DNA of 64,000 nt, taken from IMG/VR virus record IMGVR_UViG_3300042451_000960, one strand, 5' to 3'. The stretch is from a virus (taxonomy: Duplodnaviria; Caudoviricetes). The notes beneath the pieces are model-generated. The model had not been told where the DNA came from, did not search any database, and saw only the letters and a program-made list of their open reading frames with translations. Made by a program: the position numbers and the translations under genes. Below are positions 48,348-57,340 of this stretch, piece by piece (positions within the stretch are counted from its first letter, which is position 1; each line of letters opens with the position of its first letter).

Positions 48348-49559
48348 TTATCTTCCTACTTCTCCCAAATATTTTTCTTTCATTTCTTCCCAGCTGATTC
48401 CAATCGCATCTATGTAGAATAAATGTTCAGGTTTGATTCTGCCTTCATCATGTAGTTTTGTGTATCTACTAATAGCGTGTTTTTTCCACCATTTATTGAT
48501 GTATTCTGTACCTTGCTTAAACTTATCTTTGATGATTAGTTTATCTTCGGTAATTTCGTTACGAAGGAATTCACAACCATTCTCATACATCATAGCCATA
48601 TACACACCTCTTTTAAATCCGTGATGATATTCAGTTGCCTTAATACCACATTCTTTAAAGATTTGTCCTAATATCTTTTGTTTGATACCACTAACAGGTC
48701 CGTTAGCTTCATATCCCATGTTAGCACCATTACGAGCTCTCTCATCTGATATATTTTCTTTATACCATTCGGCACGATTTTCTTTTAACCATTGATGCCA
48801 AGGGTCATAATACTTATCATCCGGCTTAATGCTAATCTTACCAGCCGATTCACCTAAAGTTTTGAAAAGTGGAATACCATTGTATTGAGAATGGATACCA
48901 TACAAAGATGTTGTACCTACTGCTATAAGTACATTCTCATATTTCTTCTTCCAATACTCTCTTACTTCCGGCACCGTAGTCATCATAGCGATTAACTTAC
49001 CACCTAAGAAGTTATAACCCAATGGTTGAGTACATACAATTGTAGAAGCAATAGTTGTATTATTTAACTTACCTTTTACAAATTTATCATCTTTAGTCCA
49101 ACCAATGAAGTTATCTCTCACACCTAATGCGGTTACATCGGATGCTAAAGAGATTTGACCTAATAACTTTCCGCTTGTTCTATCTTTTACATTAATCTTT
49201 ACATTTCTGCCAGGGTTTGCTGTAAAATCCATTGTGTGAATCATTCGTCTTACCGCTGCCCACTTAGTAGATTCTTTGGCATCATCCACAATCTCAACGT
49301 AAGGGTCTAACGATTCAATTTCTTTTATCGTTAGCTCCTTATTGTTGATGTCAGTTGGTCTCCATTGAAGGTCATAATAAGATGCAATTTGGGATTTAGC
49401 CTGAATCATTGTAGGGTCTTGCAACTCTACCCACTTTTTGTATAAAGTTTGCTCCTGCACAGACATCGTCATTAGATAGTCCATGTTTTCTTTTAACTTT
49501 TGTTTTTCAACATCAAAGTCAAAGACAGGTTTTTGTGGTTCGGTATCCCAAAAGCTCAT
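48348..49559 (-). CDS. DUF4338 (DruA-like) domain protein
   Basis: PGRNVK...LGQISLAS...RDNFIGW...QPLGYNFLGGKLIA...TTSLYG. Confidence 0.75.
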   Translation of the reverse strand: MSFWDTEPQKPVFDFDVEKQKLKENMDYLMTMSVQEQTLYKKWVELQDPTMIQAKSQIASYYDLQWRPTDINNKELTIKEIESLDPYVEIVDDAKESTKWAAVRRMIHTMDFTANPGRNVKINVKDRTSGKLLGQISLASDVTALGVRDNFIGWTKDDKFVKGKLNNTTIASTIVCTQPLGYNFLGGKLIAMMTTVPEVREYWKKKYENVLIAVGTTSLYGIHSQYNGIPLFKTLGESAGKISIKPDDKYYDPWHQWLKENRAEWYKENISDERARNGANMGYEANGPVSGIKQKILGQIFKECGIKATEYHHGFKRGVYMAMMYENGCEFLRNEITEDKLIIKDKFKQGTEYINKWWKKHAISRYTKLHDEGRIKPEHLFYIDAIGISWEEMKEKYLGEVGR

Positions 49560-49561
49560 AA

Positions 49562-50257
49562 TTACTTAATTTCTACGAGGTAATAGTTTGAAGTGTAATC
49601 ACCATCGGTAAACGATACGTGTGATAATCCTTTAGATGAAATCTTTAATGAAGATGTCTTAGAACCTTTGTTAGCCATTAAGATAGCTTTCAAATACTTT
49701 GCTGAAAATGCTATTGGTTCAATATCTTCTTTACATTTACAATCTACAGCGATTGAAATTCGGTTAGAGTTAATTGAAGAATAACCCAATATAACTTCAC
49801 CACTTCCACCTTTACAAGTGAATGTAAATGTATCAGCATCAGCCAATGCACCTTTAGATTTGATGAACTTGTTAATAAAGTCATCATTAAGTGTAATCTC
49901 TGCATCAAATTCAGGCAAAGCCTTCAAATCGGGTACCGCAGGAATTACTGAAGGTGCTGCTAACATATATTGTACCTTAGTACCTTTATCAGCGAACTTA
50001 ACTGCTCCAGTTGTTTCTTCTACAGTGATTGCCTCATCCAATACACTCAACAATCCTTTTAATTGTGATGTAGTGTAGATGCCAAATTCACCTTTTGGAA
50101 AATCCTTTTCAGCTACAGTAACATCACCCAATAGAGTTTTGTCATCTGAAATCATTCTTACTGAAAGATTCTTACCATCGGCTTTTACCATAACGGATTC
50201 AATCTCACCACCAAGGTTGTAACGATTGATAAAACCATCAAATTTACTTTTGTTCAT
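49562..50257 (-). CDS. DNA polymerase sliding clamp (T4 gp45-like)
   Basis: 231 aa, directly downstream of the polymerase; FGIYTTSQL, two-domain clamp-like size. Confidence 0.75.
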   Translation of the reverse strand: MNKSKFDGFINRYNLGGEIESVMVKADGKNLSVRMISDDKTLLGDVTVAEKDFPKGEFGIYTTSQLKGLLSVLDEAITVEETTGAVKFADKGTKVQYMLAAPSVIPAVPDLKALPEFDAEITLNDDFINKFIKSKGALADADTFTFTCKGGSGEVILGYSSINSNRISIAVDCKCKEDIEPIAFSAKYLKAILMANKGSKTSSLKISSKGLSHVSFTDGDYTSNYYLVEIK

Positions 50258-50290
50258 AATATACTTTTTATAGTTTAAGTTTTAGAAATA

Positions 50291-50322
50291 CAAATATACG
50301 AAAAATTATTCAATCTACCAAA
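50291..50322 (-). promoter_or_regulatory. Bacteroidota primary-sigma promoter
   Basis: TTTGG-N19-TATATTTG. Confidence 0.75.
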
Positions 50323-56149: not shown

Positions 56150-56313
56150 TACCAGAATTTCTTTTTATCTTTTTTAGGTGGATTGGTTTCCAATTCCTTT
56201 TTTAATTTCTTTTTTTCAGCCGGCGTTAGGTTTGTCATCTTCTGCCATTCTTCCAACTTTTCCCAACTATCAATTATATAATAACCTTCCTTATCCTTTG
56301 TTAGCTTTGCCAT
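56149..56313 (-). CDS. Small hypothetical protein (54 aa), missing from the ORF track
   Basis: MAKLTKDKEGYYIIDSWEKLEEWQKMTNLTPAEKKKLKKELETNPPKKDKKKFW*; TAATG-coupled to the Mom-like gene. Confidence 0.6.
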   Translation of the reverse strand: MAKLTKDKEGYYIIDSWEKLEEWQKMTNLTPAEKKKLKKELETNPPKKDKKKFW

Positions 56314-56539
56314 TTGCTAATGCTTTTTCCAATGTTGATTGTTTCTTTTCCAACTTTGCCAACTTTGCTCTTTGCTTCATTTGTTTATCATAGCCGGCTG
56401 GATATTTGTTTGTTACTTCAATAGGTCCATTTGGAAATTTCTTTAAATCATATTTCCAAACTGATTCAACCCCATCATCATCTTTATATACGTGTTCAAA
56501 CTTTGTGGGTTTTTCTATTGGTCCTTTAGATACTGCCAT
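56291..56539 (-). CDS. Hypothetical protein
   Basis: 82 aa, directly downstream of a promoter. Confidence 0.65.
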   Translation of the reverse strand: MAVSKGPIEKPTKFEHVYKDDDGVESVWKYDLKKFPNGPIEVTNKYPAGYDKQMKQRAKLAKLEKKQSTLEKALANGKANKG

Positions 56540-56553
56540 ATCATAAATTTATA

Positions 56554-56585
56554 CAAATATACGAAATTATTCTGAAACTACCAAA
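56554..56585 (-). promoter_or_regulatory. Bacteroidota primary-sigma promoter
   Basis: TTTGG-N19-TATATTTG. Confidence 0.75.
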
Positions 56586-57340
56586 TCTATCGGGTCCATT
56601 CTATGAACTTCATCAATAATATCCAACTCTACCTTTGGATACGGAAAGACCTCATGTTTAAGTGATTTTAAGAGGGCTTTACGCTCCTTCTTATCTTTGG
56701 TTAGAATATACACATATCGGTGCTTACGGGGTTCTCTTTTAATCCAGAATGGGCTTGTAACCATTGTCTGAATTATCTTCGGGTCATTCGTTCCGTACTT
56801 CACATAAGATGTCCGAGAATGATGCCATTCATCATCTTCACTCCATTTGAAACTCCAACTATCTGACCATCTGATTTTATTACCCTGATATATCCAATTG
56901 GTAGCTTGATATACCGTTCCTAAGTGCCCAGCATTTGGGTCTGAATAAGATATAAGTGCTTTGATACGAGGTACATTAGTTCTTAACCATTCGAAAGTTT
57001 GTCCAACGAACCAACTTTCAATGTTACTACCATACCCATCGAATACGAATAGTCTTGTCAATTCTAATACACCATCTCTAGGAAGTAATTCGGAAATTGA
57101 TGCTCCGGCGTTTCTACCAACCGGGTCACCATAACAGGCAACTCCAACTAATTGTTCGTTTACACCACTAAAAAAATTATGTTCATCTTCGGATATATAA
57201 AACAAGCCAATAGCATAGGATACCTTTGTCCATATACCACTGTAATGGTTATTGACAATAATATCCTTTGCAATATTCTTATTGATTTCTCTTATTGAGA
57301 ATTTGGATATGTCACAATATTGTTTTCCTTCTACTTTCAT
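56567..57340 (-). CDS. Mom-like adenine modification enzyme (GNAT fold), paralog 1
   Basis: KDIIVNNHY, VLELTRLF, ESWFVGQT, LISYSDPNAGHLGTVYQATNWIYQG. Confidence 0.8.
   Translation of the reverse strand: MKVEGKQYCDISKFSIREINKNIAKDIIVNNHYSGIWTKVSYAIGLFYISEDEHNFFSGVNEQLVGVACYGDPVGRNAGASISELLPRDGVLELTRLFVFDGYGSNIESWFVGQTFEWLRTNVPRIKALISYSDPNAGHLGTVYQATNWIYQGNKIRWSDSWSFKWSEDDEWHHSRTSYVKYGTNDPKIIQTMVTSPFWIKREPRKHRYVYILTKDKKERKALLKSLKHEVFPYPKVELDIIDEVHRMDPIDLVVSE

What the first reader, a model, noticed from the sequence alone, without database searches (positions are those of the whole stretch)
48348..57340. Candidate new DNA hypermodification system built into the replisome operon (2x Mom-like + DUF4338 + GT-B + GIY-YIG/ParB)
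Seen: polymerase and clamp are flanked by a DUF4338 gene on one side and, on the other, by a GT-B gene (0-nt gap to pol), a GIY-YIG/ParB-like fusion and two Mom-like genes. Known: phage Mu Mom is a GNAT-fold enzyme making N6-(1-acetamido)adenine that blocks restriction, and T4 alpha/beta-glucosyltransferases are GT-B enzymes acting on DNA. Inference: several acyl/glycosyl transferases co-transcribed with the replisome may make a multi-step modified base (for example acylated adenine that is then glycosylated). No hydroxymethylase or TET/JBP gene, the usual source of a glycosylation acceptor, is in the window.
Basis: partly seen in the sequence, partly recalled or inferred. Interest (0 to 1): 0.85.

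Follow-up and report, generated by a model that had tools for sequence, protein, structure and literature searches.

The report
Mom-type DNA-modification genes inside a phage replisome
An abundant uncultured aquatic T4-like phage carries, next to its DNA polymerase and clamp, two Mom enzymes (known to decorate adenine in DNA), a DruA-like enzyme whose closest solved fold is Mom, a divergent sugar transferase and a swappable nuclease; DNA modification by the Mom pair is likely, but a role of the other enzymes on DNA is only a hypothesis.

Summary
In detail: all eight ORFs lie at the stated coordinates on the minus strand. They comprise two Mom-family proteins, a DruA/DUF4338 protein, PolB, a sliding clamp, a GT4-like GT-B with a 0-nt gap to PolB, and a GIY-YIG + ParB/Srx fusion.

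The gene set is not a chance neighbourhood. In 31 of 32 related viral contigs with enough flank, the GT-B and the DruA-like gene occur together. They are adjacent in two of the four gene orders. In all 44 loci with PolB below 70% identity, both are more conserved than PolB.

The Mom genes form two old paralogue groups that keep six of seven Mu Mom active-site residues. The best solved structural match of the DruA-like model is Mu Mom (Z 10.9). Relatives of the DruA-like protein are fused to ParB_N or UDG domains.

The GIY-YIG/ParB gene sits in a hypervariable slot, where relatives carry GmrSD-like, HNH or HATPase genes instead. It is a conflict or selfish nuclease, not a pathway step.

No hydroxymethylase exists; the genome's ThyA is canonical. 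Nothing shows that the GT-B touches DNA, and a roughly 18-kb glycan gene island nearby offers another role for it.

Verdict: adenine modification by the Mom pair is likely, and a DruA-like/GT-B second modification is possible (about 0.3). This is a new variant of a known kind.

The parts
48348..49559 (-). DruA-like (DUF4338) GNAT-fold protein, 403 aa (P0001). A clade-core gene placed directly after the clamp gene.
   Evidence: Pfam DruA E 3.8e-18 and PADLOC DruA 2.3e-17. AlphaFold model pLDDT 92. Its best solved match among 48,161 PDB representatives is Mu Mom 8bv8 (Z 10.9, rmsd 4.0, 170 of 202 residues). It is more conserved than PolB in 44 of 44 divergent loci. Relatives are fused to ParB_N, UDG or DUF3102.
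49562..50257 (-). Sliding clamp (gp45-like).
   Evidence: phrog_223 processivity factor, E 1.4e-14. Syntenic with the clamp gene of Mel-JY01.
50323..52839 (-). Family-B DNA polymerase (gp43-like).
   Evidence: Pfam DNA_pol_B plus exonuclease domain. 52% identical to the PolB of Microcystis phage Mel-JY01.
52840..53955 (-). Divergent GT4-like GT-B glycosyltransferase, 371 aa (P0002). A clade-core gene; acceptor unknown.
   Evidence: Sub-threshold Glyco_transf_4 (residues 62-144) and Glycos_transf_1 (residues 204-342) hits, seen in 25 and 23 of 28 family members. ESM Atlas neighbours are GT4 clusters. No match in isolated phages or to PDB sequences. Mean 74% identity where PolB is 58%.
53955..55232 (-). 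GIY-YIG nuclease domain (about residues 24-107), ParB/Srx domain with helical DNA-binding region (about 119-300), and an unassigned alpha/beta C-terminal domain (about 309-425) (P0003). It occupies a hypervariable slot upstream of the GT-B.
   Evidence: Model pLDDT 90.6. Structural matches: ParB/Noc/KorB, PadC, sulfiredoxin, I-TevI and the PD-T4-3 restriction endonuclease. Invariant Y28, Y39, G41, E88, N100, Q151, R153, G197, H199. Sporadic across relatives, and 47% identical where its neighbours are 96-99%.
55283..55313 (-). Terminator-like hairpin (12-bp stem followed by a T run) between MomA and P0003.
   Evidence: This is a pattern match only; the number of such sites in the region does not exceed chance.
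55349..56149 (-). MomA, a Mom-family GNAT of 266 aa (P0004).
   Evidence: Pfam Mom E 1e-44. PDB 8bv8 E 1.2e-6. Mu H58, Y59, R111, S124, D149, Y159 correspond to H32, Y33, R93, S106, D131, Y141.
56291..56539 (-). 82-aa basic ORF between the two Mom genes (P0006); function unknown.
   Evidence: Present only in the closer relatives (40-75% identity). No family hit.
56567..57340 (-). MomB, a Mom-family GNAT of 257 aa (P0005). It is 48% identical to MomA and forms a separate conserved orthologue group.
   Evidence: Pfam Mom E 1.5e-43. MomA/MomB comparison. Two orthologue groups visible in alignment A3.
57337..57540 (-). 67-aa very basic (pI 11.7) HTH-like ORF (P0515). Its stop codon overlaps the MomB start (ATGA).
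   Evidence: Conserved directly upstream of the Mom genes in most relatives. No significant family hit.

Best explanation
The region is the T4-type replisome core (PolB and clamp) of an abundant, uncultured aquatic myophage. Three kinds of accessory genes are set into it.

1. A tandem pair of old Mom paralogues. They most likely work like Mu Mom. Mu Mom takes an aminoacyl group (glycine) from charged tRNA and puts it on N6 of adenine in double-stranded phage DNA. The group then rearranges to N6-carbamoylmethyl-adenine, which shields the DNA from nucleases. The two paralogues probably differ in sequence context or donor, or they form a heterodimer.

2. A pair of genes that is core to the clade: a DruA-like GNAT and a GT4-like GT-B. 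They stay linked through genome rearrangements and are more conserved than the polymerase. The most likely reading is a second transferase pair directed at nucleic acid, with acyl or aminoacyl transfer by the DruA-like enzyme and sugar transfer by the GT-B.

3. A swappable nuclease cassette (GIY-YIG plus ParB/Srx). It is either a nuclease that attacks DNA lacking the phage's mark or a selfish homing endonuclease. It is not a biosynthetic step.

What is shown: gene identities, folds, conserved catalytic residues of the Mom pair, linkage and conservation. What is inferred: every activity, the DNA target of the DruA-like enzyme and the GT-B, and the order of steps.
For: Mom pair:
- Pfam E 1e-44 and 1.5e-43; PDB 8bv8 hit.
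- Six of seven Mu active-site residues are conserved in 26 family members (with PMC13219725).
- Two Mom genes are also found elsewhere in the genomes whose replisome locus lacks them.
- The phage carries two tRNA-Gly genes.
- An unrelated phage, Microbacterium phage Appa, has ParB-like, Mom and tRNA-Gly genes in a row in its replication module.
- No Dam, N6/N4 methyltransferase or PurZ is present in the record.

DruA-like and GT-B pair:
- They co-occur in 31 of 32 loci with at least 6 kb on both sides, and are directly adjacent in 11 of them.
- Four gene orders keep them within the replication module.
- Identity averages 74% (GT-B) and 70% (DruA-like) against 58% for PolB. Both exceed PolB in 44 of 44 loci.
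- The GT-B occurs only where the DruA-like gene does, whereas the DruA-like gene also occurs alone in Kyanoviridae replication modules.
- The best solved structural match of the DruA-like model is Mu Mom (Z 10.9; the next GNATs score 9.5 or less).
- DruA domains are fused to ParB_N, UDG or DUF3102 in relatives.
- DUF4338 is called a GNAT in PMC10853773.

Nuclease cassette:
- Folds.
- The slot holds GmrSD_N plus HNH-like, HNH or HATPase genes in other relatives.
- Mom-nuclease coupling has been proposed for jumbo phages (PMC7824862).
Against: - No experiment has been done, and no read-kinetics data were available.
- Profile-profile comparison finds no specific sequence relation between the DruA-like and Mom families (probability 1%). 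The structural margin over generic GNATs is only 1.4 Z units.
- The Mu R151 equivalent, essential in Mu, is a glycine in MomA.
- The GT-B does not match the T4 AGT/BGT families and has no PDB relative.
- No enzyme that would create a glycosyl acceptor on a base was found.
- A glycan and sugar-nucleotide island of about 18 kb lies just downstream. It gives the GT-B a plausible target other than DNA.
- Kyanoviridae keep the DruA-like gene without this GT-B or Mom.
- One relative (L075) has an internally deleted DruA-like gene.
Confidence: 0.45

Rival explanations
1. Only the Mom pair modifies DNA. The DruA-like GNAT and the GT-B act on something else, such as a host or phage protein, a small molecule, or the glycans made by the adjacent sugar island. 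They sit in the replication module only because they are expressed early or in the middle of infection.
For: - The GT-B resembles ordinary GT4 enzymes and is not basic.
- There is a large glycan cluster and a second GT4 gene a few kb away.
- No acceptor-forming enzyme was found.
- Most GNATs acylate proteins or small molecules, and many generic GNATs score Z 8-9.5 against the DruA-like model.
- Mu Mom needs no partner (PMC13219725).
Against: - The GT-B stays beside PolB or the DruA-like gene and never joins the glycan island, in four different gene orders.
- Both genes are more conserved than PolB.
- The best structural match of the DruA-like model is Mom.
- DruA domains are fused to the DNA-related domains ParB_N and UDG.
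Confidence: 0.35
2. The GIY-YIG/ParB gene is a free-standing homing endonuclease like the T4 Seg proteins. It is a selfish mobile gene that targets the highly conserved GT-B/PolB region and has no link to DNA modification.
For: - Its distribution is sporadic. It is 47% identical where the flanking genes are 96-99% identical.
- It lies in an intergenic slot between highly conserved genes, and a small HNH gene occupies the same slot in other relatives.
- Its N-terminal GIY-YIG domain followed by DNA-binding domains resembles the I-TevI architecture.
Against: - The ParB/Srx nucleotide-pocket motifs are invariant across 41 homologues (Q151, R153, G197, H199). This suggests an enzymatic or switch function rather than plain DNA binding.
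- Other occupants of the slot have defence-type architectures: GmrSD_N plus HNH-like, and HATPase_c_3.
- In L087 the gene stays adjacent to the GT-B in a non-replisome context, with a Mom gene about 2 kb downstream.
- ParB-like genes or domains accompany Mom and DruA elsewhere.
Confidence: 0.35
3. The DruA-like protein is a copy of the Druantia type I defence component. The phage uses it either as a decoy against host Druantia or to exclude competing phages, rather than as a DNA-modifying enzyme.
For: It belongs to the DruA family. Phage homologues of defence proteins are commonly noted; the Phold preprint 10.1101/2025.08.05.668817 lists DruA-like proteins in six Synechococcus phages.
Against: - No DruB-E genes are nearby; the neighbours are replisome genes.
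- Conservation above that of PolB across a wide clade, and presence in Kyanoviridae replication modules, fit a housekeeping enzyme better than a decoy.
Confidence: 0.08

Closest known systems
Phage Mu Mom (methylcarbamoylase; Pfam PF25680; PDB 8bv8)
   Same: MomA and MomB are clear family members with the GNAT core, the insertion segment, and the equivalents of H58, Y59, R111, S124, D149 and Y159. The expected chemistry is aminoacyl transfer from charged tRNA to N6 of adenine in dsDNA (PMC13219725).
   Different: There are two diverged paralogues in tandem (48% identity), conserved as separate orthologue groups; one relative has three. The R151 and W48 equivalents are not conserved. The genes lie in a T4-like replication module instead of at the late end of a transposable phage. 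No Com-like zinc-finger activator is present. A basic HTH-like 67-aa ORF overlaps the MomB start instead.
Druantia type I DruA (DUF4338, PF14236)
   Same: Homologous over residues 82-358 and sharing the GNAT fold (PMC10853773).
   Different: It stands alone in a phage replisome module with no DruB-E. Here it is linked to a GT-B. The function of DruA itself is unknown.
T4 alpha- and beta-glucosyltransferases (GT-B enzymes acting on 5hmC DNA)
   Same: A GT-B-type enzyme encoded by a T4-like phage near replication genes.
   Different: No sequence match to the AGT or BGT families. The genome has a canonical thymidylate synthase and dUTPase and no hydroxymethylase, so the T4 acceptor (5hmC) is not made. 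The nearest sequence-feature neighbours are bacterial GT4 enzymes.
GmrSD/BrxU/SspE-type type IV restriction enzymes (ParB-like DUF262 plus nuclease) and T4 EndoII (GIY-YIG)
   Same: P0003 joins a ParB/Srx-fold domain to a nuclease domain. Relatives carry a GmrSD_N plus HNH-like protein at the same slot.
   Different: The domain order is reversed and the nuclease is GIY-YIG. P0003 itself does not hit GmrSD_N. Dependence on DNA modification status is untested.
Mom-REase fusions of jumbo phages (Iyer et al. 2021, PMC7824862)
   Same: A Mom enzyme coupled with a nuclease, read there as a modification-restriction pair.
   Different: Here the genes are separate and not fused. The nuclease is of another fold and is replaceable among relatives.

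Membership tests
Mom family (PF25680) | Full-length match to the family profile above the curated cut-off. | tested here: met
   153 and 149 bits against a cut-off of 27.1, covering profile positions 2-202. phrog_1384 E 1e-47.
Mom family (PF25680) | Residues needed for Mu Mom activity: H58, Y59, R111, S124, D149, Y159. | tested here: met
   They map to H32, Y33, R93, S106, D131, Y141 of MomA. They are invariant or nearly so in 26 sequences. The residue list is from PMC13219725.
Mom family (PF25680) | Mu R151 (essential) and W48 (dimer interface). | tested here: not met
   R151 aligns with G133 and W48 with N22 of MomA. An invariant H136 lies three residues further on.
Mom family (PF25680) | Gly-tRNA-dependent modification of adenine in dsDNA. 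| not testable with these tools
   Needs expression and nucleoside mass spectrometry.
DruA / DUF4338 (PF14236) | Match to the family profile. | tested here: met
   66 bits against a cut-off of 27. PADLOC DruA 2.3e-17.
Druantia type I system | DruA encoded together with DruB-E. | tested here: not met
   The neighbours are the clamp, PolB, dUTPase and clamp loader.
Mom-like fold (for the DruA-like protein) | Closest solved structure is Mom, covering most of the chain. | tested here: met
   8bv8_B Z 10.9, rmsd 4.0, 170 of 202 residues aligned; next best Z 9.5.
Mom family (for the DruA-like protein) | Sequence-profile relation to Mom. | tested here: not met
   hhalign probability about 1% with two different DruA-like alignments.
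GT-B glycosyltransferase, GT4-like | N-terminal Glyco_transf_4 and C-terminal Glycos_transf_1 halves. | tested here: inconclusive
   The query scores 19.6 and 18.5 bits, below the cut-offs. 25 and 23 of 28 family members match, with best E-values of 3.5e-6 and 7e-5. ESM Atlas neighbours are GT4 clusters. No structure was predicted.
T4 AGT/BGT DNA glucosyltransferases | Family membership and a 5hmC acceptor supplied by a hydroxymethylase. | tested here: not met
   These families do not appear in the Pfam scan at E 0.1 or better. The ThyA homologue is a canonical thymidylate synthase.
GIY-YIG nuclease | Fold and catalytic Tyr, Tyr, Glu and Asn residues. | tested here: met
   I-TevI catalytic domain Z 6.9, rmsd 2.9, 81 of 92 residues. 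Foldseek probability 0.98. Y28, Y39, E88, N100 are invariant.
ParB/Srx superfamily | Fold and the DGxH-type motif. | tested here: met
   ParB-CDP 6sdk E 2.7e-4. PadC Z 8.4, KorB Z 8.1, sulfiredoxin Z 7.5. G197, N198, H199 are conserved.
GmrSD-type type IV restriction enzyme | GmrSD_N (DUF262) domain plus a His-Me nuclease. | tested here: not met
   P0003 has no GmrSD_N hit. The alternative cassette L006:6843-8537 does, together with an HNH-like C-terminus.

The most novel reading that the evidence does not exclude
DruA-family GNATs are enzymes that acylate or aminoacylate DNA bases, related in mechanism to Mom. In this abundant aquatic phage clade, the DruA-like enzyme and its obligate GT-B partner would build a glycosylated acyl-base on replicating DNA, alongside adenine modification by the Mom pair. 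By extension, DruA of Druantia type I would be that system's self-marking module, as the methylase DruM is in type II. The comparison with type II rests on my recollection of Doron et al. 2018 and was not tested here.
Probability: 0.2. Interest if true: 0.9.

Novelty: new variant of a known kind. Interest (0 to 1): 0.6.

Why it matters
Mom-type modification was explained mechanistically only in 2026, and only for single-gene systems. This clade is very abundant: 3168 DruA-like and 606 GT-B homologues were found in metagenomes.

The clade keeps two diverged Mom enzymes. It also keeps two further transferases that evolve more slowly than its DNA polymerase.

If the DruA-like/GT-B pair acts on DNA, three things follow. 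There would be a new hypermodification. The DUF4338 genes found across marine cyanophages and pelagiphages would get a first function. The mechanism of Druantia type I, unexplained since 2018, would get a testable idea.

If the pair does not act on DNA, the finding is still a clean natural case of duplicated Mom enzymes for studying donor and site specificity.

Tried and rejected
- Complex prediction of the DruA-like protein with the GT-B returned 'no answer' (score 0.00). It counts neither for nor against binding.
- Foldseek of the DruA-like model against the PDB gave only weak p300/CBP and generic GNAT matches, and Mom was not in the top 50. The wider VIA-align search found Mom.
- hhalign of DruA-like against Mom profiles found no relation.
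- A GT-B profile searched against PDB sequences found nothing. tblastn of the GT-B against isolated phages found nothing.
- A suspected DruA-GT-B fusion in L035 was an artefact of my ORF routine. A stop codon separates the two genes.
- Contexts of the UDG-DruA and ParB-DruA fusion proteins lie on contigs of 2.5-3.8 kb and told nothing more.
- The T4 late-promoter motif TATAAATA is absent upstream of the Mom genes and is rare in the window. Sigma-70-like and terminator-like scans do not exceed chance.
- Pfam scans of the small ORFs, the C-terminal domain of P0003 and the ends of the DruA-like protein gave nothing significant.
- The hydroxymethylase idea was rejected, because the ThyA homologue is canonical.
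- A Z-genome or Dam-type methylation was rejected for the held 160 kb.
- A Com-like activator of Mom was considered. The 67-aa ORF upstream has no cysteines and looks HTH-like.

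
Full report
**What is there.** The window is positions 95299-159298 of a 160-kb IMG/VR virus record estimated to be 79% complete. It has about 33% G+C, and every gene is on the minus strand. The family-B polymerase is 52% identical to that of Microcystis phage Mel-JY01 and about 33% identical to those of T4-like cyanophages. This is therefore a distant T4-like myophage.

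In transcription order, the finding's interval and its flanks read as follows:
- RecA, FEN and DnaB-like genes.
- Ribonucleotide reductase and thioredoxin.
- A 67-aa basic ORF.
- MomB, an 82-aa ORF, MomA.
- The GIY-YIG/ParB protein.
- The GT-B, PolB, the clamp and the DruA-like protein.
- A 134-aa ORF, dUTPase and the clamp loader.
- A PD-(D/E)XK nuclease and a second GT4 gene.

The stated coordinates and the 0-nt GT-B/PolB junction are exact.

**The Mom pair.** Both proteins match Pfam Mom at more than 149 bits, and MomA matches the Mu Mom crystal sequence 8bv8 directly. I mapped the residues that Silva et al. 2026 (PMC13219725) found important in Mu. H58, Y59, R111, S124, D149 and Y159 are conserved in both paralogues and in 24 relatives. 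R151 and the dimer residue W48 are not conserved.

MomA and MomB are 48% identical, and each forms its own orthologue group across the clade. The duplication is therefore old and both copies are kept. One relative has a third copy, and some have only the MomA type. Genomes whose replisome locus lacks Mom carry the tandem pair elsewhere.

Mu Mom alone transfers glycine from Gly-tRNA to N6 of adenine in dsDNA, and the adduct rearranges on the base (PMC13219725). The same chemistry is the default expectation here. The phage encodes 26-27 tRNAs, including two tRNA-Gly. Microbacterium phage Appa shows ParB-like, Mom and tRNA-Gly genes in a row next to DnaB and SSB. Mom genes in replication modules, and next to ParB-like genes, are therefore recurrent.

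**The DruA-like protein.** Pfam and PADLOC assign it to DruA/DUF4338. The Aravind laboratory has called this domain a GNAT (PMC10853773). A model built on a 50-sequence alignment has pLDDT 92.

Foldseek against the PDB was uninformative. An all-against-representatives search ranked Mu Mom first (Z 10.9, rmsd 4.0 Å, 170 of 202 residues aligned), with generic GNATs at Z 9.5 or below and FemA at 8.7. Profile-profile comparison shows no specific sequence relation to Mom. The protein is therefore Mom-like in fold but is not a Mom-family member.

An exhaustive HMMER search found 997 relatives. Several are fused at the N-terminus to ParB_N, to a uracil-DNA-glycosylase-superfamily domain, or to DUF3102. 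This points to DNA as the working context.

Homologues sit in the replication modules of Pelagibacter myophages and many T4-like cyanophages. In S-CAM9 the gene lies between the two clamp-loader genes. One such homologue is annotated 'methylcarbamoylase mom' by its depositors. The Phold preprint had already noted DruA-like proteins in six Synechococcus phages. Structural relatives also occur in giant viruses.

**The GT-B.** The query alone is below the Pfam cut-offs, but most family members hit both GT4 halves. ESM Atlas neighbours are GT4 clusters. It has no match in isolated phages or among PDB sequences. All 606 detected homologues come from viral metagenome contigs.

**Linkage.** I fetched 92 related viral loci and mapped all window proteins on them. 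Four gene orders occur:
- (A) MomB-MomA-[variable gene]-GT-B-PolB-clamp-DruA, as in this window.
- (B) MomB-MomA-DruA-GT-B-PolB-clamp.
- (C) PolB-clamp-DruA-GT-B-clamp loader.
- (D) RecA-FEN-x-GT-B-PolB-clamp-DruA.

Among the 32 loci with at least 6 kb on both sides of the GT-B, 31 hold the DruA-like gene, and in 11 it is directly upstream of the GT-B. The exception, L087, keeps GIY/ParB-GT-B with a Mom gene about 2 kb downstream in a different context. One locus has an internally deleted DruA-like gene.

In the 44 loci with PolB below 70% identity, the GT-B averages 74% identity and the DruA-like protein 70%. PolB averages 58% and the clamp 52%. Both accessory genes exceed PolB in every locus.

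The distribution is nested: the GT-B occurs only where the DruA-like gene does, while the DruA-like gene also occurs alone. This is what a downstream pathway step would show, but it does not prove one.

**The GIY-YIG/ParB protein.** Its model (pLDDT 90.6) has an I-TevI-like GIY-YIG domain, a ParB/Srx domain with the following helical region, and an unassigned C-terminal domain. The catalytic-type residues of both known domains are invariant in 41 homologues.

The gene occupies a slot immediately upstream of the GT-B. In relatives, this slot holds a GmrSD_N plus HNH-like protein, a family of about 400 aa with no family match, a HATPase_c_3 protein, a small HNH protein or other singletons. Where the GIY-YIG/ParB gene is present, it can be 47% identical while its neighbours are 96-99% identical.

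It is therefore a mobile or fast-turnover cassette and not part of a conserved pathway. Two readings remain open. It may be a nuclease that discriminates DNA by modification state, the logic proposed for Mom-REase fusions in PMC7824862. Or it may be a Seg-like homing endonuclease.

**What argues against a multi-step hypermodified base.**
- No hydroxymethylase is present. The ThyA homologue outside the window is canonical, with its best PDB matches being E. coli thymidylate synthase structures (E 7e-72) and the dUMP-specifying Asn retained. The dUTPase is canonical too.
- The TET/JBP search was negative but had no positive control.
- Mu Mom needs no helper enzyme.
- The GT-B is not basic.
- A glycan and sugar-nucleotide island of about 18 kb starts a few kb downstream. 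It includes GT2, GT11 and GT4 genes, a UDP-GlcNAc 2-epimerase, DegT, FkbM methyltransferases and SDR dehydratases.
- A terminator-like hairpin separates the Mom genes from the GIY/ParB-GT-B-PolB block. Co-transcription of all five genes is therefore unproven.

**Verdict.** DNA adenine modification by the Mom pair is likely (about 0.75). A DNA role for the DruA-like/GT-B pair is a reasonable hypothesis that is new to the literature I could search, at about 0.3. The nuclease is an accessory cassette. I rate this a new variant of a known kind, with moderately high interest. The interest comes from the DruA-Mom structural link and from the unusual conservation of the two transferases.

Noticed in passing
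window 26912-44642 (minus strand): A glycan and sugar-nucleotide gene island of about 18 kb. It holds two GT2 genes, GT11, GT4-type genes (one hitting 'GT4-conflict'), UDP-GlcNAc 2-epimerase, DegT aminotransferase, a GNAT, three FkbM methyltransferases, three SDR epimerase/dehydratases and a PfkB kinase. The target (virion, host envelope or other) is unknown.
   Followed up: partly
slot upstream of the GT-B in related loci, e.g. L006:6843-8537, L067:3229-4749, L065:9440-9937, L010:1151-2359: A hypervariable slot. It holds GmrSD_N plus HNH-like proteins (10 loci), a HATPase_c_3 protein, a small HNH endonuclease, a family of about 400 aa with no family match (4 loci) and singletons, in place of the GIY-YIG/ParB gene.
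   Followed up: partly
proteins P0371, P0374, P0394, P0382, P0402: DruA domains fused at the N-terminus to ParB_N, to a UDG-superfamily domain, or to DUF3102. The contigs are too short to give context.
   Followed up: partly
L099:6677-7828 (Synechococcus phage S-CAM9), L097:7911-9209, L098:7920-9062 (Pelagibacter phages): DruA-like genes sit in the replication modules of Kyanoviridae. In S-CAM9 the gene lies between the two clamp-loader genes, next to endonuclease V. One homologue in phage S-SCSM2R is annotated 'methylcarbamoylase mom'.
   Followed up: partly
L102:1978-3237 (Microbacterium phage Appa): A ParB-like gene overlaps a Mom-like gene, and a tRNA-Gly(ccc) gene follows directly. All lie next to DnaB and SSB.
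   Followed up: no
G000:C1:77807-85231 (outside the window): A cluster of 26-27 tRNA genes covering nearly all amino acids, including tRNA-Gly(UCC) and tRNA-Gly(GCC).
   Followed up: no
G000:C1:16183-17154 and L004:3023-3931: A canonical thymidylate synthase with two insertions (331 aa) and a UvsE-type UV damage endonuclease nearby.
   Followed up: partly
BFVD hits A0A3G4ZXG3, A0A5K0UAJ3, A0A3G4ZRA1: Giant viruses (Faunusvirus, Yasminevirus, Dasosvirus) encode proteins structurally similar to the DruA-like model (E 9e-20 to 1e-9). Two of them are longer than 1100 aa.
   Followed up: no
L088:3270-5506: One relative carries three Mom paralogues in tandem; the third is only 40-42% identical to MomA and MomB.
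   Followed up: no
L075:14302-15316: The DruA-like gene has an internal deletion of residues 182-248 and a frame change. It is either a pseudogene or an assembly error.
   Followed up: partly
window 57337-57540 and 56291-56539: Two small basic ORFs flank MomB. One is a 67-aa HTH-like protein (pI 11.7) whose stop overlaps the MomB start and which is conserved upstream of the Mom genes in most relatives. The other is an 82-aa Lys-rich protein found only in close relatives.
   Followed up: partly
whole window: The T4 late-promoter motif TATAAATA occurs 4 times against 14.6 expected from shuffles, so it is depleted.
   Followed up: no
P0001 and P0003 cluster records: The exact DruA-like and GIY/ParB proteins are recorded on 17 and 14 contigs, the longest 278,432 bases. 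The full genome may therefore be larger than the 160-kb record.
   Followed up: no
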